Shown here one piece after another: positions 1 to 9,100 of a stretch of DNA of 64,000 nt; positions within the stretch are counted from its first letter, which is position 1; each line of letters begins with the position of its first letter. The translations under genes and the position numbers were made by a program. The stretch lies in contig JACROU010000024.1 in assembly GCA_016214265.1 (NCBI GenBank), forward strand, positions 5,223-69,222, read 5' to 3'. This DNA comes from Candidatus Omnitrophota bacterium. Lineage in GTDB: Bacteria; Omnitrophota; Omnitrophia; Omnitrophales; JACROU01. Under the pieces are notes generated by a model that was not told the DNA's origin, did no database searches, and worked only from the letters and a program-made list of their open reading frames with translations.

Positions 1-3000
1 TTGAACCGGATGTCCATCCACATAGTCGATCGTGCCATTGACTTGATCAATGACTCTGAGAAGCGACTGAACGATATTCGTTTTTCCGCTCGAATCCGTG
101 ACGGTGCTATATCCATATTCTGCGCCGGCAAGAGTGGTCAGTTGGGTGAGTTTTCCCGAGGCGTCATAAAATCGGACTACGTTTAAATCATTTGTGATTT
201 GAGTTTCATTTCCCGAATAGGCGTATTTGAATGTGCCCAGAAGATTTCCGGCGCGCGTCACGCTCGTCTGGATAAGACGGCCAAGTGCGTCATAACTCAT
301 ATCCATTTGCGTGAGCACACCATTTTCTGTGGATTCAATCTGAACCACCTTGTCATTTTGAACAATCGAGCGGCTCCCGCTTGCACTCGTAAATTCAGCA
401 AGATGCGCCACGGACACAGGATTGTTGTTGGCATCCAGCTCTTCGGCGATTCTATATTGGCGGCCATCGGTCATCGTGAGCCAAAACGGTTTATCCTGAC
501 TGACTTTGAGAAGAGTTCCATCGGCATACTTCACCTGCGTGAGAGCCTGATTCACGAAAGTAAGCTCTTTTACATCCGGCGTGATAATCAGAGCATCTTT
601 GAGATTGCCGTTGGCATCATGTGTGAAATTCTTGATGACGGTTCCATCCGGCTTTGTGATTTGGATGACTTGATCATTTGAAATGCCGAATACGGTTCCG
701 TCATGATCCACAAGTTCTTTTAACTTCCCGTCAGAACCATAAGTCCGCTTGAGGCCGTCACGGGACACGATGAGCCCTTGGAGGAATCCGAGAGGGTCGT
801 TGGCGAGTGCATATTGAGTTTCGTTTCCGCTTGCATCCAGCACACGATTGATCAGTCCAGACTCATCAAAGAAAAATTGGGTGCCGTCGCCCCGAGTCCA
901 CTTTTTGATTGTGTTGGAAGTTGTGTACTGAACTATTTGAGGAAGCGGGCTTGCGGGATCCAGCGTCACGCCTCCGCTGATTCGGGCTTCGTATCCATCC
1001 GGGGTTTGCGTGATTTGATAAAGGAAGTCCGTTCCCTGATACGCGATTTTTGAAAGCTTGCTTTGCGTGAAGAAAAATTCTGTGCCGTCTGATTTCCTAA
1101 AATCTTCAATTTCTCCTTGTGCATTTAAGGTGACCCGGTTGTCTCCCTCAAAAATATGCGTTCTCAATAAATTGCCGGAGACACCAAACGCATAGGTGTA
1201 ATAAACCACGCTTCCATTCGCGAGCACTTCGGCCTGGGCTCGTCCATCACTGTTATAGAAAATACGAGTTCCTTCAGGACGAAGTTCTTCGACAATTTTT
1301 CCTGCCTCAAGCCGGTACAAAACTTTACTTGCCGTTTCAATCCATCCGCCTTGAAGCACACCGCTTGCATCCAGGCTGGGATCAATCAAACCGGCCTCAG
1401 TCCCATTCAGATTAAACGTGATATTGGTCTTGCGCTCCGGCAGCGCCGGCTGAGCAAGGGCATTCAAGATCACGAGATAATAGGCCGCCACATGACCACC
1501 CCCGCTGGTCGGCACATCGACCTGAAGCAGATTGCCGCCGGAAGTCAGCGTGACGGATTTTGTCATGGGTGTCCCGTCACTGGTATAGGCGAGCGTATAA
1601 CTCGGATTATTCGTCAGTGTTGGGGAGTTGAAAACCACTTCCGGCAATTTCGTTTCGAGCATCACGTTGAAATCGAGTTTTGTTTCATTTCCTGCGGGAT
1701 CTTGTTCTGCAATCGAAAGTGTGTTCACACCTTCCGTCAGTGTCACACTTTTTGTCTTTTGCACTCCATCGACTGTGTAGACAAGCGAGTAATCCGGCTG
1801 ATTCACTGAGACAGCCGATGTCACCACCACCTGTGGGGCAATCGTATCGAGTGTCACATCGAAATTTAATTTCGTTTCGTTTCCTGCCGGATCTTGTTCT
1901 GTAATCTGGAGGGTGTTCAGTCCTTCGACTAATGTCACAGGTTTTGTTTTTTGAACACCATCAACGGTATAAGTCACAGTGTAGTCGGGTTTGTTGGTCA
2001 GCGAAGCCGAAGTCGCGGCGACAACCGGACCAACCGTATCCAGCGTCACGTCAAAATTAAGATTCGTTTGGTTTCCAACCAAATCTTGTTCGGCGATCTG
2101 GAGCGTGTTTAATCCCTCAACCAATGTCACGGGTTTTGTTTTTTGAACGCCATCGACGGTGTACGAAAGCGTGTAATCGGGTTTATTCACAAGATTCGTG
2201 GAAGTGACAGTGATAGCCGGAGCAACAGAATCCAGTGTTACATTAAAATTAAGTTTCGTTTGATTACCGGCAGCATCCTGCTCCGAAATCTGAAGCGTAT
2301 TCCCTCCTTCGGTAAGTGTCGCTGTTTGCGTTTTCTGTACACCATCCACGGTGTAGGAAAGTGTGTAGTCGGGTTTGTTAGTGAGTACGGCCGAAATCAC
2401 GGCGACAACCGGGGCAATCGTATCCAGCGTCACATCAAAACTGAGTTTCGTTTCGTTTCCAGCTAAATCTTGTTCGGCGATCTGAAGTGTGTTGAGCCCT
2501 TCAGTCAATGTCACAGGTTTTGTTTTTTGCACTCCATCGACGGTGTACGAAAGCGTGTAATCAGATTTATTGGTTAACGCGACTGAAGTCGCAGCAACTA
2601 CCGGGCCAATCGAGTCCAGCGTCACGTCAAAATTCAGATTGGTTTGATTAGCCGCTGCATCCTGTTCCGTAATTTGGAGGGTATTTACACCTTCGATCAG
2701 CGTCACGGGTTTTGTTTTCCGAACTCCGTCCACAGTGTAAGTCAGTGTGTAATCGAGTTTATTTGTCAACGCGACTGAAGTCGCTGCGACAACCGGAGCA
2801 ATTGAATCAAGTGTTACATCAAAATTTAAATTCGTTTGATTACCCGCCAAGTCCTGTTCGGTAATCTGAAGCGTGTTCAGTCCTTCGACCAATGTCATGG
2901 GCTGTGACTTCTGTACACCATCCACCGTGTAGGCAAGTGTGTAATCGGGTTTATTCACAAGATTCGTGGAAGTGACCGCAACAACTGGCGCAACCGAGTC

Positions 3001-5937
3001 CAGCGTCACATCAAAATTCAGATTGGTTTGATTACCAGCCGGATCCGACTCGGTAATCTGAAGCGTATTCCCTCCTTCGGTAAGTGTCGCTGTTTGCGTT
3101 TTCTGTACACCATCCACCGTGTAGAAAAGTGTGTAGTCGGGTTTGTTCGTGAGTACGGCCGAAGTCACGGCGACAACCGGGGCAATCGTATCCAGCGTCA
3201 CATCAAAACTGAGTTTCGTTTGGTTTCCAGCTAAGTCTTGTTCGGCAATCTGAAGTGTGTTCAGTCCTTCAGTCAATGTCACGGGTTTCGTCTTTTGAAT
3301 ACCATCCACGGTATAAATCAGTGTGTAATCAGGTTTGTTCACAAGACCCGCAGAGGTAACCGAGACAGCGGGAGCAATTGAATCAAGTGTTACATCGAAA
3401 CTTAAATTCGTTTGATTACCCGCCAAGTCCTGTTCGGTAATCTGAAGCGTGTTCAGTCCTTCGACCAATGTTATGGGCTGTGACTTCTGTACACCATCCA
3501 CGGTGTAGGAAAGTGTGTAGTCGGGTTTGTTCGTGAGTACGGCCGAAGTCACGGCGACAACCGGGGCAATCGTATCCAGCGTCACATCAAAACTGAGTTT
3601 CGTTTGGTTTCCAGCTAAGTCTTGTTCGGCGATCTGAAGCGCGTTCAGTCCTTCGACTAGCGTCACTGCTTTTGTTTTTTGAACGCCGTCCACAGTGTAA
3701 GTCAATGTGTAATCGAGTTTATTTGTCAAAGCGACTGAAGTCGCAGCAACTACCGGAGCAATTGAATCAAGTGTTACATCAAAATTTAAATTCGTTTGAT
3801 TACCCGCCAAATCCTGTTCGGTAATCTGCAATGTGTTCAATCCTTCAACGAGTGTAACGGGACGCGTTTTCTGTGCACCATCAACGGTGTACGTCAGTGT
3901 GTAATCAGATTTATTGGTTAACGCGACTGAAGTCGCTGCGACAACCGGGCCAATCGAGTCCAGCGTCACATTGAAATTCTGGTTCGTCACGTTACCCGCA
4001 GCGTCTTGTTCGGTGATGGTGAGCGTGTTCAGTCCTTCCACGAGTGTCGTTGTTTGCGTTTTCGCTACGCCATCGACAGTGTAGGTCAGCATATATTCAG
4101 GCTTGCTCGTCAATGCGCTTGAAGTCACCAGGATCAGCGGTGCGCTATCCCAATACACCACATCCTGAAACACCGAAATATTCCCCCACCGGTCGGCGAA
4201 TGATCGAAGAATCGGGTTCGCGCCTTCTTTCAACTGAATCTGCTCTGTGTACGCCTCACCGTCAATATCCAGAACAAGTTCATAATTCGACTGATTCACA
4301 AGGCCCTTCGACAAGCGCGTCACCACCGGTGCGGTTGTGTCTTGCTCCACAAGTCCGAACTTCACGTCCAGATTCGTGTTCGTCGAATACCACCACGGCG
4401 AGTTATTCCTCACATCGATCTCGAAAAAGCGGATGTTCTTAATATCCAGCGACCACGTGTAATCCGCCAAATCCAGCATGAAGAATTTCTCCTCATTCTG
4501 CGTGATCCCCTGAAGCGTGACCGATTTGCGCTGGCCGTACCAGTCGGTGATCACCAGTGACGCTTCTGTGACATTACCTTTTAGCGCAAGCCCCATCCGT
4601 GAATTCTTCGAAAAATCAAAGTTTTGATAGTTAGAGTTTTCAATTCTTGCCGCAAGCGGATTCGGCTGATAATAATAGTAATAGTTATTCCAGCCTCCCC
4701 ACCAATAATTGTTCCATCCCCAATAATTTTGCGACGATGATGACAACTGAAATTGCGTGTAATCCGGCGTTTGTGTGGAATTTACGTATGACCCGTAATT
4801 TGTCGTCACCCACGCGGGCTGGCCATTCGTGGTAAGCGGCATGAGGCCCGACAAGCCGAAACCGTTCTGGCCCTGAATCACATTCGGCTCATAACTTCTC
4901 ATGTACTGATTTTGAAAATAATTCTGATAATAATAATTGCCGTAATAATTTTGATAATACCCATACCCCCATGAATTCCAATATCCGGAATAATAGTTAT
5001 ACGGATAACCCCAATAGGCATATCCGCCGTGGCGCGGTGAGTAGGGATAATAACCGTTATAGGCGTTTGCCGGCGGCTGGGTACGCACAAACAAATATCC
5101 CTGCTGCTGGCCGTAGCCGTTGTAGGGATTGTAGTAGTTGTAAAAATTGTAAAAATTATTCTGATTCTGAAGCGCCGTCAGTTTTATCTGCCGAATTTGA
5201 TCCAGATCGAGATAACCCGAAAGATTCGTCAGATCAATATCATAAATCCGCTCTGAGCCGTATGAATTGGTCTGTAGCAGGTCCAAACTTACTTTGTTGC
5301 CAAACGCGTCTTCCATCTCAAAAAGAATTTTTTCCGAGTTACTGTCAATCGCGAACCGGAGATGATTCAATTTGGAAAAATCCGCCGACTCCACGAGCGA
5401 CGTCGATTCTTTATCGTAACTGAAAATAACGCCCGGCGCGGTGCCGGGATTTCTCAGGTCATAATCGACTTCAACACCTTCTCTGGAATTACTGACCATT
5501 GATGAGTGCAAACTTTTAATACTGGCCCCTGCTGGCAATCCGGTTAAATCATTTTGAGTGAGATTCCAGCTGGAGCTGACTGGCTGAGCCTGTGTCGCCG
5601 TATTCGCGGTAACGGGCTGAAGGGTTGAGCTCTGCGTCATAAAAGACGTGGTGCTCGACTGACTGGCGTTTTGCGTTAAAGTATTTTGATAAACCGAAGT
5701 ATTTTGAGTTTGAGGCTGACTGGAATTAGCTTGGACGACTGGCTGACTTGGCGTTTGTGTCTGCTGAGCCACTGGGGTGGCTTGCGCAAATGCACATTGC
5801 TGGGCAAGAAATGAGATTAGCGTGAACGCGGCGACTGCGCGGAATAAATCTTTTTTAAACTTTTTCGTTCCTCGTCTCTCACCTCCTGGGTAGGTGGACT
5901 TTGAGGTTCGATCAAATTTTTTTTTGCTTGAGAACAA
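1..5937 (-). CDS. Giant secreted/surface protein that is 5'-complete and 3'-truncated by the window edge (>1950 aa). It has a signal peptide, a Gln/Thr-rich linker, a Tyr/Asn/Gly/Trp-rich low-complexity region, at least 13 tandem 64-aa Ig-like repeats, and then YD/RHS-type repeats that run off the window.
   Basis: Hand translation of the minus strand in one frame (codon top coordinate = 0 mod 3) is stop-free at every stretch checked: 5937..5341, 4980..4921, 3660..3421 and 1440..1021. That frame gives ...TKKFKKDLFRAVAAFTLISFLAQQCAFA (signal peptide), then a Gln/Thr/Pro-rich linker, then WNSWGYGYYQNYYGNYYYQN, then repeats VTLDSIAPVVA..KPDYTL.YTVDGVQK...TL.EGLNTLQI.EQDLAGNQT, then YD-like ...YGSDGKLKELVDHDGTVFGISND.... 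The gene is absent from the ORF track because it has no stop codon inside the window. The start is ambiguous: in-frame TTG at 5937 (GGGGAG 7 nt upstream) or TTG at 5961. A strong AGGAGGTGA Shine-Dalgarno sits 10 nt before an in-frame ACG at 5868 that is followed by a canonical KKFKK-hydrophobic-AFA signal peptide. No in-frame ATG occurs until 5640. Confidence 0.72.
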   Translation of the reverse strand, partial: MFSSKKKFDRTSKSTYPGGERRGTKKFKKDLFRAVAAFTLISFLAQQCAFAQATPVAQQTQTPSQPVVQANSSQPQTQNTSVYQNTLTQNASQSSTTSFMTQSSTLQPVTANTATQAQPVSSSWNLTQNDLTGLPAGASIKSLHSSMVSNSREGVEVDYDLRNPGTAPGVIFSYDKESTSLVESADFSKLNHLRFAIDSNSEKILFEMEDAFGNKVSLDLLQTNSYGSERIYDIDLTNLSGYLDLDQIRQIKLTALQNQNNFYNFYNYYNPYNGYGQQQGYLFVRTQPPANAYNGYYPYSPRHGGYAYWGYPYNYYSGYWNSWGYGYYQNYYGNYYYQNYFQNQYMRSYEPNVIQGQNGFGLSGLMPLTTNGQPAWVTTNYGSYVNSTQTPDYTQFQLSSSSQNYWGWNNYWWGGWNNYYYYYQPNPLAARIENSNYQNFDFSKNSRMGLALKGNVTEASLVITDWYGQRKSVTLQGITQNEEKFFMLDLADYTWSLDIKNIRFFEIDVRNNSPWWYSTNTNLDVKFGLVEQDTTAPVVTRLSKGLVNQSNYELVLDIDGEAYTEQIQLKEGANPILRSFADRWGNISVFQDVVYWDSAPLILVTSSALTSKPEYMLTYTVDGVAKTQTTTLVEGLNTLTITEQDAAGNVTNQNFNVTLDSIGPVVAATSVALTNKSDYTLTYTVDGAQKTRPVTLVEGLNTLQITEQDLAGNQTNLNFDVTLDSIAPVVAATSVALTNKLDYTLTYTVDGVQKTKAVTLVEGLNALQIAEQDLAGNQTKLSFDVTLDTIAPVVAVTSAVLTNKPDYTLSYTVDGVQKSQPITLVEGLNTLQITEQDLAGNQTNLSFDVTLDSIAPAVSVTSAGLVNKPDYTLIYTVDGIQKTKPVTLTEGLNTLQIAEQDLAGNQTKLSFDVTLDTIAPVVAVTSAVLTNKPDYTLFYTVDGVQKTQTATLTEGGNTLQITESDPAGNQTNLNFDVTLDSVAPVVAVTSTNLVNKPDYTLAYTVDGVQKSQPMTLVEGLNTLQITEQDLAGNQTNLNFDVTLDSIAPVVAATSVALTNKLDYTLTYTVDGVRKTKPVTLIEGVNTLQITEQDAAANQTNLNFDVTLDSIGPVVAATSVALTNKSDYTLSYTVDGVQKTKPVTLTEGLNTLQIAEQDLAGNETKLSFDVTLDTIAPVVAVISAVLTNKPDYTLSYTVDGVQKTQTATLTEGGNTLQISEQDAAGNQTKLNFNVTLDSVAPAITVTSTNLVNKPDYTLSYTVDGVQKTKPVTLVEGLNTLQIAEQDLVGNQTNLNFDVTLDTVGPVVAATSASLTNKPDYTVTYTVDGVQKTKPVTLVEGLNTLQITEQDPAGNETKLNFDVTLDTIAPQVVVTSAVSVNQPDYSLVYTVDGVQKTKSVTLTEGVNTLSIAEQDPAGNETKLDFNVMLETKLPEVVFNSPTLTNNPSYTLAYTSDGTPMTKSVTLTSGGNLLQVDVPTSGGGHVAAYYLVILNALAQPALPERKTNITFNLNGTEAGLIDPSLDASGVLQGGWIETASKVLYRLEAGKIVEELRPEGTRIFYNSDGRAQAEVLANGSVVYYTYAFGVSGNLLRTHIFEGDNRVTLNAQGEIEDFRKSDGTEFFFTQSKLSKIAYQGTDFLYQITQTPDGYEARISGGVTLDPASPLPQIVQYTTSNTIKKWTRGDGTQFFFDESGLINRVLDASGNETQYALANDPLGFLQGLIVSRDGLKRTYGSDGKLKELVDHDGTVFGISNDQVIQITKPDGTVIKNFTHDANGNLKDALIITPDVKELTFVNQALTQVKYADGTLLKVSQDKPFWLTMTDGRQYRIAEELDANNNPVSVAHLAEFTSASGSRSIVQNDKVVQIESTENGVLTQMDMSYDALGRLIQTSVTRAGNLLGTFKYAYSGNETQITNDLNVVRFYDASGKLTQLTTLAGAEYGYSTVTDSSGKTNIVQSLLRVIDQVNGTIDYVDGHPVQ
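1600..4140 (-). repeat. Intragenic tandem array of about 13 copies of a 192-bp unit, each encoding a 64-aa Ig-like / 'VDTIAP'-type domain, inside gene A.
   Basis: The 8-mer tccagcgt recurs at 2423, 3191 and 3575, with spacings of 768 and 384 bp (4x192 and 2x192). Near-identical antisense ORFs at 2143..2466 and 3028..3234 in the track confirm the DNA-level repetition. The translated units are in-frame and begin with D-V-T-L-D-(S/T)-I-A-P-V-V. Confidence 0.85.
4650..5160 (-). other. Tyr/Asn/Gly/Trp-rich low-complexity segment of gene A (about 170 aa, aromatic-rich and prion-like).
   Basis: Minus-strand translation of 4980..4921 gives WNSWGYGYYQNYYGNYYYQN. The surrounding DNA is dominated by tat/tac/aat/aac/ggn/tgg codons (the plus strand shows ata/att/gta/cca runs). 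Confidence 0.7.
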
Positions 5938-6068
5938 TTCATTGCTCCCCGAATGCCCCAATCCTTTGGGTGACTAAGATCCATCTTCAGTTTTCTGTTT
6001 ATCCGTGTTTTTCCACTTGAAATTCCCAGGAATACAATTTCAAAGGAAGAATCAACATGTTGGTGCAA

Positions 6069-6175: not shown

Positions 6176-9100
6176 CTAAGCAGCGGTTTCAAGAATCCGG
6201 GTTTTCTGCCAGAGACGAATTTGTTCCTCAAGAATGGAAGGCAAAAGTTCGTAGGTAGAGCTGTTTATATCCATGTGGCGGAAAAGATAATTCCAGTCGC
6301 TCTTGTTACCAAAGGCATCGAAAACAGTTCTCAAAAGAGCCGACCGATAAGCTTCTTTCTTCAGCCCATTTTTTTGATGGACAACACGGAAAGCGCTCTC
6401 CGGCCAGCTTTCATTAAATTGATGATTGAGGAAAACAACCTGGTCCGGTCGTAATTCTGTCACATTTCCATCGGGAAACATTGCATCAACGATTCTCGTT
6501 TGAATTCGTGAAAGAAGAGCTTTTAGATCGAGCCGGGTTGTCCTTTCTAAATTACCCCACTTGACAAGATACACGTGCCTGTCTTTCAAAAGTGAGCCGA
6601 ATTCATCCTCCACTTTTCTAGCTATTTCCTCGTCTGGGACAAGAAAAATCACACCCTGTGTCCGGTAATCACTGCGAAAATCCCGTTGCTTATCCAACAG
6701 TTGCTCCAAAACATCTGCATCGAATTTCATAACAAGCGGCGTAAAACGAGGCGATTGAATCACTGAAGGTCCAAGGTTTCGCCTGTTCTCCCCAAGACTT
6801 TTTCCGGAAGATGCCGGTTCGGGGGCGGTAAAGACAATGCGGTATTCATATACGCCATATGGATTTTTATAATAATCCTTCGTGTAACGCAATTCGCCTA
6901 AAATTTTGTCGGAGTCAATTGGCGGTTCCCAAGCTCCACTATCTTCCCGCTTCTGTAAATAGAATGCCAATCCGCCGCCTCGATCTGATAACACCAACGG
7001 TTGTTCTATTGTGATAATGTCATGATTTTTACTTTTTGCTTCTAACGCAGTCTCCAACGCCCAAAGGATACGTATGAAAAAGGCATGAGAGGTGTCGGCG
7101 GGCGTAGAAAAATCAGGCACGCTTTTGTAAATTTCGGACAAACGTGTTTTTAAAATCTCATAATCCTGGAGAAATTCAGCCATTAATCTTCCCTTAAATT
7201 CTTTTTCTTCTCCCACAAGCATTCTGCCAGTCTGATGTTTTGCCAACTTTGGCCAAAGATCGTATAATTCAGTTGATTGTTGTTTTTTGACTAATTCTTG
7301 CTTCTCGATCACTGCTCGCTCCAATTGTAATGGGACAGCATTCATCTCTGTTTGTAAAACCCGCAACTCATTATCGGAAGGTTTTTGATAGTACGCGTGA
7401 CCGGGGAGCTTTTTGGCAATAAAATCCACATTCTTTGCTGTCCCGGAATCCAGATCAGAAATCCGGCTTGCCCTTTCCAGAAATTCAGTAACCGCTTTCG
7501 AAAAATCATTTCTCATTTTATCGGGTATTTTTGCGTCAGAAACGATACCGAGCATAATTTTACTGGCATCCTTGAGCCAAACTTTCTGCCTTTCAACATA
7601 TTCTTGCGGCGTGTCATGAAATTTTCCATGTCTGAGGTGAAACAATTCTGCTTGTATCTTGAGAAACTGGATAAGCAGAGAATCATTGGATGTGTAACAA
7701 GTTAGGGTTTGCATAGCTCCGGTCTCATCCGTAAACATAATAAATTCCGGCTTAAAATTGGCGAACCCTCCCCCATGAATAAGTACGATAAGCCGCCTAT
7801 AGGTGTCAAAATGAGGCGAGATGCTGGGATTGGGGTTAGATGGATCAAATGGTTTTGGTGGCATCGGTGGAGCTGGAAGAGAATAATATTGAGGGTGATC
7901 CTCCACGTACTGCAACGATTTACGGGCTCCGTCAAAATCTCTGGCCCAAATTTGATCAAGAATTTCTCTTTGTGTTTGTCGAATGAAACTCATTCGATCT
8001 TCAACCCTTTTCTTTGAAAGATATGTAGGGATGTTGCTGATAGCTCCAGTAACAAGACAACCAGCGCTAATCAGCGCAAAAAGAAGACAGCCTTTTGAAA
8101 AACGTCTGGAGGGCTTTTTGTCGGTGTCAAGGAGCGCAACAACGGCCTGCGCTTTTTCTGATGACGCTGTTTTTCTGACTTTCTGAGCTGGTGATGGTGA
8201 TTTCGGCTTTCCGGTAACAGCCGCCGCAGTCGTGGCGCTGGCAGTTTTGGCTACAGCGTTTCGTTCCGACGGCTTGTTCAGCTGAAAAAGCACCGTCAAT
8301 TTGAAACGCTGCCCGACCTGGGGGGCAAAAGCACCGTTCACATCCACTTGTTCCGGCAACTTGATCGATTTAAGTCCGTTTTTATCAGCGGGAATTGGCG
8401 GCTGAAATTCCCGGGTCGCTGGATTCTCGCGCTGGACGAAAACAGTCAGCTTTCCCTCCTTTGTGTCAAATTCCAAGTTGTTGAGCTGAATCGGCTCGTT
8501 CTTCCTGCGGCGACTCGAAATTTCAGCAAGAATGCGCTTGAGAATTCTCAGATTATTTGGAACTTTGGGATCTGACGCTGAAAGCTCGAGCTCCCTTTGA
8601 TACGCGAGAATGACCTGCTCATAAATGTTGTCAGGTGTCGGCGGCAAAGTGCCTGATGCGATACCCAAACTTTTTCCGGAAGAAGCCGATTCCAGAGCGG
8701 TAAAAACAATTCGGTATTCATATTCACCCATGGGGCAACATATCCGTCTGACGCGAAATTCATCAAGGATAGATTGGTTGCCAATAGTCGGACACCACGG
8801 CTCATTCCCTTTCCGTTTTTGTAAATAAAAAGCTAACCCACCTCCTGGAGCAGGCAAAAATAGCGGTTGTTCGATACGAATAATTTCACCTCGAGATTTT
8901 TTTTCTTCCAAGATTTGCTGCAAAGTCTCTTTAACTATTGTCATAAAAGCCTTAGGGTGCCCGTTCGCTTGGTTATCTCGTGGCATCCCGTATAAATACT
9001 TCTCCACAATTTCACGTCCGCGAACAAGTTCATTGACAGGTCTGTCGTAATCACGAATCTGATGAGCTAGTACCGCTAACCATAACTCGAACAATCTATC

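What the first reader, a model, noticed from the sequence alone, without database searches (positions are those of the whole stretch)
1600..4140. Exactly periodic 192-bp tandem repeats (about 13 Ig-like domains) with high nucleotide identity in gene A
The repeat-to-repeat DNA identity is high enough that identical 8- to 30-mers recur at exact 192-bp multiples. This configuration is prone to unequal recombination, so the stalk length of this surface protein is probably variable, as with phase- or size-variable adhesins. It is also a hotspot for assembly collapse.
Basis: seen in the sequence. Interest (0 to 1): 0.5.

Follow-up and report, generated by a model that had tools for sequence, protein, structure and literature searches.

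The report
Old Ig-domain spacer array, patchy conversion
A giant exported protein of an uncultured Omnitrophota-type bacterium carries 15 head-to-tail copies of a 64-residue Ig-like domain; the repeat is real and perfectly periodic, but most copies diverged long ago, so it is an ordinary, fairly stable spacer rod and not a fast length-switching adhesin.

Summary
The 192-bp periodicity is real. TRF finds 11.7 copies at 1835-4086, and a family HMM finds 15 units at 4341-1465 on the minus strand: 13 well conserved and one degenerate at each end. Exact in-register k-mers reach 121 nt, against 4-6 nt at control lags. The units are short Big_13-type Ig-like domains. They sit in a signal-peptide-bearing protein whose RHS/YD C-terminal part runs off the window.

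"High nucleotide identity" is overstated. Units are 60-91% identical (about 73% typically), third codon positions only 53%, median dS about 1.5 and dN/dS about 0.11. Adjacent units are the least alike. No exact run of 25 nt or more joins neighbours, and there is a 2-unit (384-nt) super-period. Most DNA similarity therefore reflects protein constraint on old duplicates.

The long exact runs lie in a few 130-220-nt tracts of 94-96% identity between non-adjacent units, and the units are mosaics. This is the signature of occasional gene conversion.

A homolog (L010) has 21 units with the same 64-aa register and the same patchy tracts, so copy number does change over evolutionary time. No close ortholog exists in any collection searched, so strain-level variation and assembly collapse remain untested.

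Verdict: new member of a known kind, low interest.

The parts
1..5937 (-). Gene A, partial CDS. Probable TTG start at 5937; the C-terminus runs off the window start. 1979 codons are visible.
   Evidence: Open frame 5973..1 without a stop. TTG at 5937 is preceded by GGGGAG at 5950-5945. No other in-frame start lies before the signal peptide.
5785..5937 (-). Signal-peptide-like N-terminus: a long basic n-region, the hydrophobic stretch AVAAFTLISFLAQQ, and AFA|QA.
   Evidence: Read from the translation. A nearly identical segment occurs in homolog L010. Inference; no predictor was run.
5917..5925 (-). A9 homopolymer (codons 5-7, KKK) just after the start codon. It could act as a frameshift on/off site.
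   Evidence: One of only three homopolymers of 9 nt or more in 64 kb. Position read. Function is not tested.
5188..5571 (-). N-terminal domain 1, uncharacterised; a paralog of the pre-array domain.
   Evidence: BLASTP between the two domains: 25% identity over 71 aa, E = 8e-6. No Pfam hit.
4639..5166 (-). Y/N/G/W-rich low-complexity region (aa about 270-445).
   Evidence: Translation. It probably swamped the word-based protein search.
4345..4629 (-). Pre-array domain (aa 449-543), conserved in homolog L010.
   Evidence: The BLASTP alignment with L010 starts at aa 452. No Pfam hit.
4153..4341 (-). Unit 1, degenerate (63 aa).
   Evidence: HMM domain score 23, spacing 63 aa.
1657..4152 (-). Units 2-14: thirteen 64-aa (192-nt) Big_13-type Ig-like units in exact register, with a 2-unit super-period.
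1465..1656 (-). Unit 15, diverged (38-42% protein identity to the others).
   Evidence: HMM score 92. Identity matrix.
3482..3654 (-). Recent exchange tract: 173 nt, 96% identical to 3270..3098 (lag 2 units). It contains the 121-nt exact run 3630..3510 and straddles the unit 4|5 boundary.
3043..3264 (-). Recent exchange tract: 222 nt, 94.6% identical to 2496..2275 (lag 4 units).
3364..3532 (-). Recent exchange tract: 169 nt, 94.7% identical to 2956..2788 (lag 3 units).
3706..3839 (-). Recent exchange tract: 134 nt, 94% identical to 2879..2746 (lag 5 units).
1..1464 (-). RHS/YD-repeat region, continuing beyond the window.
   Evidence: Pfam RHS_repeat E = 1.7e-13 with 3 stretches.

Best explanation
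**What it is.** The array is a long-lived structural spacer (extender rod). It consists of 15 head-to-tail 64-residue Ig-like (Big_13-type) beta-sandwich units. It sits between the N-terminal domains and the RHS/YD C-terminal part of a Sec-exported giant protein, in an Omnitrophota-type bacterium.

**Why it is exactly periodic.** The domain has a fixed length and there are no linkers. Periodicity does not show that the copies are young.

**How it evolved.**
- The array grew long ago, largely by duplication of two-unit (384-nt) blocks.
- Purifying selection has since kept the protein units 70-89% alike, while synonymous sites drifted apart.
- Occasional short-tract gene conversion copies 130-220 nt between non-adjacent units.

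**What follows for copy number.**
- Copy number changes on an evolutionary timescale: 15 units here against 21 in a homolog.
- Crossovers within the conserved tracts could delete or duplicate 2-7 units in frame.
- The array is not a high-frequency size switch.

**Shown:** periodicity, divergence pattern, mosaic tracts, fold family, and the homolog's different count.

**Inferred:** export, rod function, a rod length of roughly 45-55 nm, and gene conversion as the mechanism.
For: - **Periodicity and unit count:**
- **Domain family:** Pfam Big_13, 154.8 bits against a cutoff of 27.
- **Structure:** the AF2 three-unit model is all-beta with five strands per unit, pLDDT 71.5.
- **Foldseek:** best PDB hits are the tandem BIg extenders of SiiE (2yn3, E = 1.3e-5), Aeromonas and Marinobacter RTX adhesins, MpIBP RII and GhpA.
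- **Old duplicates under constraint:** median pS 0.67, dS about 1.5, dN 0.16, dN/dS 0.11. Identity by codon position is 0.83/0.89/0.53.
- **Two-unit super-period, dissimilar neighbours:** TRF gives 76% at period 384 against 71% at 192. Third-position identity is 0.58/0.55/0.60 at lags 2, 4 and 6, against 0.47/0.52/0.50 at lags 1, 3 and 5. Adjacent units fall below a random order (P = 0.006).
- **Recent short exchange tracts:** five tracts of 134-222 nt at 94-96% identity, at lags of 2-6 units, straddle domain boundaries.
- **Runs beyond chance:** exact runs of 57-121 nt exceed all 2000 null simulations, which had mean 26 and maximum 53.
- **Mosaic units:** different thirds of a unit have different nearest partners.
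- **Lineage-specific array:** every unit 2-14 has its nearest relative inside the array (73-89%), against at most 64% outside.
- **Homolog L010:**
  - Same signal peptide, pre-array domain and RHS repeats as gene A.
  - 21 units in exact 64-aa register at only 47% intra-array protein identity, and TRF detects no DNA tandem.
  - The same roughly 95% tracts, at lags 4, 12 and 16.
- **Literature:** an independent preprint reports that nucleotide tandems in Omnitrophota long proteins have mostly 'dissolved' through synonymous change while the domain architecture persists (10.64898/2026.06.07.730766).
Against: - No reads and no close ortholog are available, so present-day copy-number polymorphism cannot be excluded.
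- Exact repeats of 57-121 nt exceed the roughly 25-nt minimal length for RecA-type recombination (established knowledge; Lovett 2004 is cited in PMC9704523). Some ongoing in-frame deletion or duplication is therefore plausible.
- Gene conversion is inferred from tract length and mosaicism. It was not shown by a formal phylogenetic test.
- The structural model has only moderate confidence, and the single-unit model failed.
- The unit matches only the C-terminal half of the Big_13 profile (positions about 50-102 of 102). It is an unusually short Ig-like module.
- Export and rod function are inferred. The C-terminus, and therefore the protein's actual activity, is off the window.
Confidence: 0.7

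Rival explanations
1. Periscope-type variable-length stalk. Intragenic homologous recombination between the repeats actively changes the number of units among cells or strains, tuning how far the protein reaches from the cell surface.
For: - The repeats are 64 residues, above the 50-residue criterion. Mean column identity is 80%, at the edge of the 80% or higher screening criterion of PMC8201768.
- Big_13 was itself defined from Periscope-type proteins.
- Seventeen exact in-register runs of 25 nt or more are present, up to 121 nt.
- Adjacent-domain protein identity of 69-86% breaks the rule that adjacent domains share less than 50% identity, as Periscope proteins do.
- The homolog has 21 units against 15 here.
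Against: - DNA identity is only about 73%, with dS about 1.5. The Periscope paper finds the largest variation at the highest repeat identity.
- Neighbours are the least similar units, and no exact run of 25 nt or more joins them.
- The tracts look like conversion rather than crossover products.
- No cell-anchor motif is seen.
- No close homologs are available to show variation.
Confidence: 0.2
2. Assembly artefact. The copy number, or the mosaic pattern, was produced by collapse or chimeric joining of repeats or strain variants during metagenome assembly.
For: - Related arrays fragment assemblies. L008 (2023 nt) and L011 (1811 nt) consist only of units.
- Scaffold L004 has N-gaps inside its array where L013 carries about 175 nt.
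- The 121-nt exact run and the 173-nt, 96% tract at lag 384 could permit a 2-unit misjoin if k-mers were 121 nt or shorter.
Against: - All 15 units are distinct.
- The frame stays open over 1991 codons with perfect register.
- Synonymous divergence between units cannot be created by collapse.
- There are no Ns in the window.
- The longest exact repeat (121 nt) is shorter than common read lengths and top k-mer sizes.
- The same patchy pattern occurs in an independent assembly of a homolog.
Confidence: 0.07
3. The long identical stretches reflect nucleotide-level selection, for example on mRNA structure or codon choice, and not recombination.
For: None specific. It was considered because the exact runs recur at the unit boundary region.
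Against: - The runs are shared only by particular pairs or triplets of units, not by all units at that column range.
- A column-wise null that preserves per-column conservation gives a maximum run of 53 nt, against 121 observed.
Confidence: 0.03

Closest known systems
Tandem bacterial Ig-like (BIg / Big_13) extender regions of giant adhesins: SiiE (PDB 2yn3), MpIBP region II (4p99, 4kdw), and Aeromonas and Marinobacter RTX adhesins (6xi1, 6xi3)
   Same: Head-to-tail beta-sandwich beads without linkers, forming a rod. The D-x-AGN motif is shared. These are the best sequence and fold matches. Homolog L010 passes the NCBIfam Ca_tandemer cutoff.
   Different: - The unit is only 64 aa, against about 90-104 aa, and matches only half of the Big_13 profile.
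- The protein has an N-terminal Sec-type signal peptide and RHS/YD repeats. It does not show an RTX/T1SS architecture.
- Gene A itself gives no Ca_tandemer hit.
- MpIBP repeats are nearly identical at the DNA level (own knowledge), whereas these are about 73% identical.
Periscope Proteins (SasG, Rib, Sgo_0707 SHIRT, CdrA; PMC8201768, PMC9704523)
   Same: A long tandem array of folded domains with unusually high adjacent-domain protein identity (69-86%) in a probable surface or exported protein. Copy number differs between homologs.
   Different: DNA repeat identity is modest and synonymous sites are diverged. Neighbours are the least similar units. Variation among close strains has not been demonstrated. 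No wall or membrane anchor has been identified.
RHS/YD-repeat proteins with N-terminal export signals (WapA-type polymorphic toxins; teneurin-like YD shells)
   Same: A signal peptide, then N-terminal domains, then RHS/YD repeats.
   Different: The RHS core, the DPxGL motif and a C-terminal toxin are not visible, because the C-terminus is off the window. A 15-unit Ig rod upstream of the RHS region is not typical of WapA or T6SS Rhs effectors (own knowledge).
Omnitrophota giant and long proteins with repeat scaffolds (bioRxiv 10.1101/2023.11.21.568195; 10.64898/2026.06.07.730766)
   Same: All relatives of the unit come from Omnitrophota MAGs. The window holds a 14,531-aa gene. The preprints describe repeat architecture with dissolved nucleotide tandems and RHS-like beta-helices.
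   Different: Gene A belongs to the minority whose tandem is still TRF-detectable. Neither paper's text mentions Ig-like arrays, and RHS appears only as a structural analogy in the 2023 preprint (term searches).

Membership tests
Big_13 / bacterial Ig-like domain (Pfam PF19077, E-set) | Profile-HMM score above Pfam's gathering threshold | tested here: met
   154.8 bits against a cutoff of 27, E = 1e-45. Each unit covers only profile positions of about 50-102 of 102.
Big_13 / bacterial Ig-like domain (Pfam PF19077, E-set) | Beta-sandwich (Ig-like) fold of the unit | tested here: met
   - The AF2 three-unit model is all-beta, pLDDT 71.5.
- Foldseek matches 2yn3 at E = 1.3e-5.
- Confidence is moderate only; the single-unit model failed.
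Periscope Proteins | [quoted passage not shown] | tested here: inconclusive
   Units are 64 aa. Mean column identity is 80%, but median pairwise identity is 75% and adjacent pairs are 69-86%.
Periscope Proteins | High DNA identity between repeats, enabling intragenic recombination | tested here: not met
   DNA identity is 60-91%, typically about 73%. Third positions are 53% identical and dS is about 1.5. Only patches reach 94-96%, and none lies between neighbours.
Periscope Proteins | Repeat number differs among closely related strains (homologs at 90% identity or more) | not testable with these tools
   No close ortholog was found in the genome, metagenome or protein collections. Only a 45%-identical homolog is available, with 21 units.
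Periscope Proteins | Cell-surface anchoring with a distal functional domain | tested here: inconclusive
   A signal-peptide-like N-terminus was read from the sequence. No anchor motif is seen and the C-terminus is missing.
RHS/YD-repeat polymorphic toxins | RHS/YD repeats | tested here: met
   Pfam RHS_repeat, E = 1.7e-13, three stretches in aa 1504-1991. Homolog L010 hits RHS_repeat and TIGR01643.
RHS/YD-repeat polymorphic toxins | RHS core with a DPxGL cleavage motif, followed by a variable C-terminal toxin | not testable with these tools
   The C-terminus lies off the window. No DPxGL occurs in the visible part of gene A or in the 4373 aa of L010.
RTX / T1SS Ca2+-stabilised repeat adhesins (MpIBP, SiiE, LapA type) | NCBIfam Ca_tandemer repeat signature | tested here: not met
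   Gene A has no NCBIfam hit at E of 0.01 or lower. Homolog L010 scores 53.7 bits against a cutoff of 50.
RTX / T1SS Ca2+-stabilised repeat adhesins (MpIBP, SiiE, LapA type) | C-terminal RTX nonapeptide repeats and a T1SS signal, with no N-terminal Sec signal | tested here: inconclusive
   No RTX Pfam hit occurs in the visible 1991 aa. The Sec-type signal peptide argues against this architecture, but the C-terminus is not visible.
Simple-sequence contingency (phase-variable) locus | Mutable homopolymer or short repeat in the 5' CDS or promoter, with observed length polymorphism | not tested
   An A9 tract occupies codons 5-7 (5925..5917). No population data are available.

The most novel reading that the evidence does not exclude
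The array could be a length-tunable reach module of a contact-dependent weapon. In this reading, Omnitrophota (putative predators or epibionts) export RHS/YD proteins on Ig-domain rods. Rod length would be adjusted in two-unit steps by crossover within the conserved tracts. Dissimilar neighbours (a two-unit super-repeat with diverged synonymous sites) would be selected to keep the rod genetically stable between such events. The A9 tract at codons 5-7 would add an on/off switch.
Probability: 0.12. Interest if true: 0.55.

Novelty: new member of a known kind. Interest (0 to 1): 0.25.

Why it matters
- **Method lesson.** Exact periodicity and recurring k-mers in a coding tandem repeat do not by themselves indicate recent duplication or hypervariability. 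Synonymous-site divergence and neighbour-versus-distant comparisons separate an old, constrained domain array from a Periscope-type variable one.
- **Omnitrophota biology.** The finding adds a documented architecture: a signal peptide, two unknown domains, a 15-21-unit Ig rod and an RHS/YD region. It sits next to a 14.5-kaa giant gene. It also shows that short-tract intragenic gene conversion recurs in these genes: in gene A, in its homolog L010, and in gene B.
- **Annotation and assembly.** The copy number here is probably trustworthy to within a possible two-unit error.

Tried and rejected
**Searches for close orthologs, to compare copy number**
- Exact-protein look-ups of the complete neighbours, gene B and the ATPase: not on record.
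- Word-based protein search with nearly all of gene A: no hit, probably swamped by the Y/N-rich region.
- The same search with the pre-array domain plus the first units: one weak hit at 35% identity.
- Genome and metagenome scans with the unique N-terminal part: nothing.
- Unit-profile scans: only relatives at 61% identity or less.

**Copy-number comparison inside the family**
- L012 against L014 (87% DNA identity) looked like 10 units against 4. L014's array is in fact truncated by an IS3-type transposase, so it is not a clean variant.
- L013 against L004 differ only at N-gaps.
- L005 and L015 are the same sequence.

**Structure**
- The single-unit AF2 model (84 aa) had pLDDT 63.9, and Foldseek on it returned only noise. 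The three-unit model was used instead.

**Other checks**
- Relaxed Pfam and NCBIfam scans of the N-terminal domains found nothing.
- The idea that gene B and the gene at 57774-63431 are paralogs flanking the giant gene was rejected, because BLASTP shows no similarity.
- Nucleotide-level selection as the cause of the long exact runs was rejected by the column-preserving null.
- The promoter and terminator scan of the gene B/gene A spacer was uninformative.
Full report

Yes. Tandem Repeats Finder reports a period-192 array at 1835-4086 with 11.7 copies, 71% matches and 0% indels. It reports the same array at period 384 with 76% matches. No listed ORF covers the array, because the gene runs off the window. 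The minus strand is open from 5973 down to position 1, which is 1991 codons.

The translation shows a striking exact 64-residue register. An HMM built from the units finds 15 domains with spacing 63, then 13 x 64 residues:
- thirteen well-conserved units at 4152..1657;
- a degenerate unit at 4341..4153;
- a diverged unit at 1656..1465.

The in-register match fraction is 0.53-0.72 at lags of 192 x k, against 0.23-0.26 at control lags. Exact runs of 8 nt or more number 50, 48, 36 and so on at the true lags, against none at control lags, where the maximum is 4-6 nt. In total there are 65 exact in-register runs of 15 nt or more, 25 of 20 nt or more, 9 of 30 nt or more and 6 of 50 nt or more. The longest are 121, 70, 63, 59, 57 and 57 nt.

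**2. How similar are the copies?**

Less similar than 'high nucleotide identity' implies. Pairwise DNA identity among units 2-14 is 60-91%, typically about 73%. The best pairs are u7/u11 at 91% and u5/u8 at 88%. This is no higher than protein identity, which is 55-89%.

Identity by codon position is 0.83/0.89/0.53. Nei-Gojobori estimates give median pS 0.67, dS about 1.5, dN 0.16 and dN/dS about 0.11. Seventeen pairs are too saturated to correct. Adjacent pairs have pS of 0.56-0.80. Most of the DNA similarity is therefore the shadow of purifying selection on the protein sequence of old duplicates.

Neighbours are significantly less alike than a random unit order would give. Third-position identity is 0.466 against 0.530 (P = 0.006). 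Even lags are more alike than odd lags: 0.575/0.554/0.597 at lags 2, 4 and 6, against 0.466/0.523/0.500 at lags 1, 3 and 5. This agrees with TRF's better 384-nt period and indicates an ancestral two-unit super-repeat. No exact run of 25 nt or more joins adjacent units; the longest is 24 nt.

**3. Where do the long exact k-mers come from?**

They sit in a few tracts of 94-96% identity between non-adjacent units:
- 222 nt, 3264..3043 against 2496..2275 (lag 4);
- 173 nt, 3654..3482 against 3270..3098 (lag 2), which includes the 121-nt exact run;
- 169 nt (lag 3);
- 167 nt (lag 6);
- 134 nt (lag 5).

All of these tracts straddle unit boundaries. A null that keeps each column's observed conservation gives a longest run of 26 nt on average, with a 99th percentile of 39 and a maximum of 53 in 2000 simulations. 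Six observed runs of 57-121 nt exceed that maximum.

Different thirds of a unit have different nearest partners:
- N-third: {3,10}, {4,9}, {5,7,11};
- middle third: {5,8}, {7,11};
- C-third: {3,5,8}, {4,6,10}.

The units are therefore mosaics. Short tracts of about 0.7-1.2 units at lags of 2-7 units are what non-reciprocal gene conversion produces. An unequal crossover at lag k would instead leave a k-unit-long diagonal. This step is an inference. The same tracts are nevertheless long enough to serve as substrates for occasional in-frame deletion or duplication of 2-7 units.

**4. What is the unit and what is the protein?**

Pfam assigns the array to Big_13 (PF19077, 154.8 bits against a cutoff of 27), with overlapping Glucodextran_B and HYR hits. 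Each unit matches only the C-terminal half of those profiles.

The AF2 model of three units is all-beta with five strands per unit (pLDDT 71.5). Foldseek's best PDB hits are tandem BIg extenders:
- SiiE (2yn3, E = 1.3e-5);
- the Aeromonas RTX adhesin (6xi1);
- MpIBP region II (4p99);
- 6xi3;
- the Aureispira grappling-hook protein GhpA.

2yn3 is also the only sequence-profile hit in the PDB. It is the structural exemplar given for Big_13 in PMC9704523.

From N- to C-terminus, the visible protein contains:
- a probable TTG start at 5937, behind a GGGGAG Shine-Dalgarno sequence;
- a signal-peptide-like segment ending AFA|QA;
- a Q/S/T-rich stretch;
- an unknown domain;
- a Y/N/G/W-rich low-complexity region;
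- a second, paralogous unknown domain;
- the 15-unit array;
- RHS/YD repeats that run off the window.

**5. Relatives**

The unit profile finds relatives only in Candidatus Omnitrophota MAGs and in environmental contigs, at 61% identity or less. Arrays in these proteins have 1-27 units with 64-76-aa spacing.

L010, from a 328-kb contig, encodes a true homolog. Its features are:
- a nearly identical signal peptide;
- the same pair of pre-array domains;
- 45% identity from the pre-array domain through the array;
- RHS/YD repeats, followed by ILEI and peptidase-C39-like domains.

L010 has 21 units in perfect 64-aa register. Intra-array protein identity is only 47% and DNA identity 53%, and TRF detects no tandem there. 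Exact periodicity is therefore a property of this linker-less fixed-length domain, not evidence of youth.

L010 also carries tracts of about 95% identity, 194-287 nt long, between units 3, 7 and 19. This is the same sporadic exchange seen in gene A.

In gene A, every unit 2-14 has its nearest relative within the array (73-89%), against at most 64% elsewhere. Gene A's array was therefore expanded or homogenised within its own lineage and is of intermediate age.

A 2026 preprint reports the same general picture for long Omnitrophota proteins: tandems 'dissolved' by synonymous change while the architecture persists.

**6. Testing the interpretation**

Its screen was repeats longer than 50 residues at 80% identity or more. 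Confirmation came from copy-number differences among homologs at 90% identity or more. The largest variation was found at the highest repeat identity.

Gene A meets the length criterion. It is borderline on protein identity, with 80% mean column identity but 75% median pairwise identity. It fails on DNA identity. Strain variation cannot be tested, because no close ortholog exists in any collection searched.

The family-internal comparisons I tried were not clean:
- L014's array is cut by an IS3-type transposase.
- L004 and L013 differ only at scaffold N-gaps.

On assembly, family arrays do fragment assemblies; L008 and L011 are contigs made only of units. In this window, however, all units are distinct, the frame and register are intact, there are no Ns, and the longest exact repeat is 121 nt. 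Wholesale collapse is therefore unlikely. A two-unit misjoin through the 173-nt tract cannot be excluded without reads.

**7. Most likely mechanism**

The array is a stable extender rod of Ig-like beads. Its length is roughly 45-55 nm if each unit adds about 3-3.5 nm; this figure is inferred from strand lengths and was not measured. The rod spaces the N-terminal domains from the RHS/YD module of an exported giant protein.

It evolved by ancient two-unit block duplication, purifying selection and occasional gene conversion. Copy number changes slowly (confidence about 0.7). Active Periscope-like variation remains possible (about 0.2). An assembly artefact is unlikely (about 0.07).

**8. Novelty and score**

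Tandem Ig-like extender arrays, their recombination footprints and Omnitrophota giant repeat proteins are all known. This is a new member of a known kind. It has a somewhat unusual short (64-aa) unit and an Ig-rod-plus-RHS architecture. Interest is 0.25.

The most novel reading not excluded is a reach-tunable, contact-dependent RHS weapon with a two-unit step size and an A9 on/off tract. I give this about 12% probability.

Noticed in passing
window 13970-57565 (-): A single 14,531-aa ORF with an ATG start and an N-terminal hydrophobic segment. It contains RHS/YD-like repeats (Pfam RHS_repeat, E = 6e-15), long coiled-coil stretches, T/S-rich beta repeats, HEAT-like repeats and HExxH motifs near the C-terminus. 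It has almost no other Pfam hits. It resembles the Omnitrophota giant proteins ('Archaeovorins') described in bioRxiv 10.1101/2023.11.21.568195.
   Followed up: partly
window 6179-12034 (-), gene B: A 1952-aa protein with a signal peptide and no Pfam hit. It has an internal duplication of about 1.87 kb. One 300-nt patch is 97% identical (8268-8567 against 10137-10436), while neighbouring duplicated parts are 79-83% identical. This is the same 'recent conversion patch on an old duplication' signature as in gene A.
   Followed up: partly
window 5917-5925 (A9 on the coding strand): A homopolymer A9 forms codons 5-7 of gene A, directly after the putative TTG start. Only three homopolymers of 9 nt or more exist in the 64-kb window; the others are at 9203-9211 inside gene B and at 12124-12132 upstream of gene B. 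It is a possible slipped-strand on/off site.
   Followed up: no
window 12216-13658 (-): An AAA_14 / DUF4143 ATPase gene (480 aa) is wedged between the giant gene and gene B. It is the only conventionally annotatable gene in the window.
   Followed up: no
window 57774-63431 (-) and 63511-63999 (-): A further 1886-aa ORF and a partial ORF, neither with any Pfam hit. The 1886-aa protein is not a paralog of gene B. All large genes in the 64-kb window are on the minus strand, and cumulative GC skew falls steadily.
   Followed up: partly
window 4639-5166 (-), gene A aa about 270-445: An extremely Y/N/G/W/Q-rich low-complexity region (for example NFYNFYNYYNPYNGYG... and WGWNNYWWGGWNNYYYYYQ) lies between two paralogous unknown domains. 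Homolog L010 lacks it and has a different insert there.
   Followed up: no
L014 1-1140: In a relative of the L012 protein (87% DNA identity), the Ig array is truncated by an IS3-family transposase (orfA/orfB). Only about 4 of 10 units remain.
   Followed up: yes
L008 (2023 nt), L011 (1811 nt), L004 6414-6422 and 7294-7320: Short contigs consist solely of Ig units, and scaffold N-gaps lie inside an array that another assembly of the same population (L013) fills with about 175 nt. Arrays of this family do break short-read assemblies.
   Followed up: partly
L010 aa about 200-215; window giant ORF N- and C-terminal regions: HxH...S..D motifs occur in the L010 homolog (IAHTHPREEQSSGPSGKD) and twice in the window's giant protein (HAHTHIEDKPPSLED and THNHPESGEPSSTD). 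They resemble JAMM/MPN-type metalloprotease signatures. This was seen by eye and was not tested.
   Followed up: no
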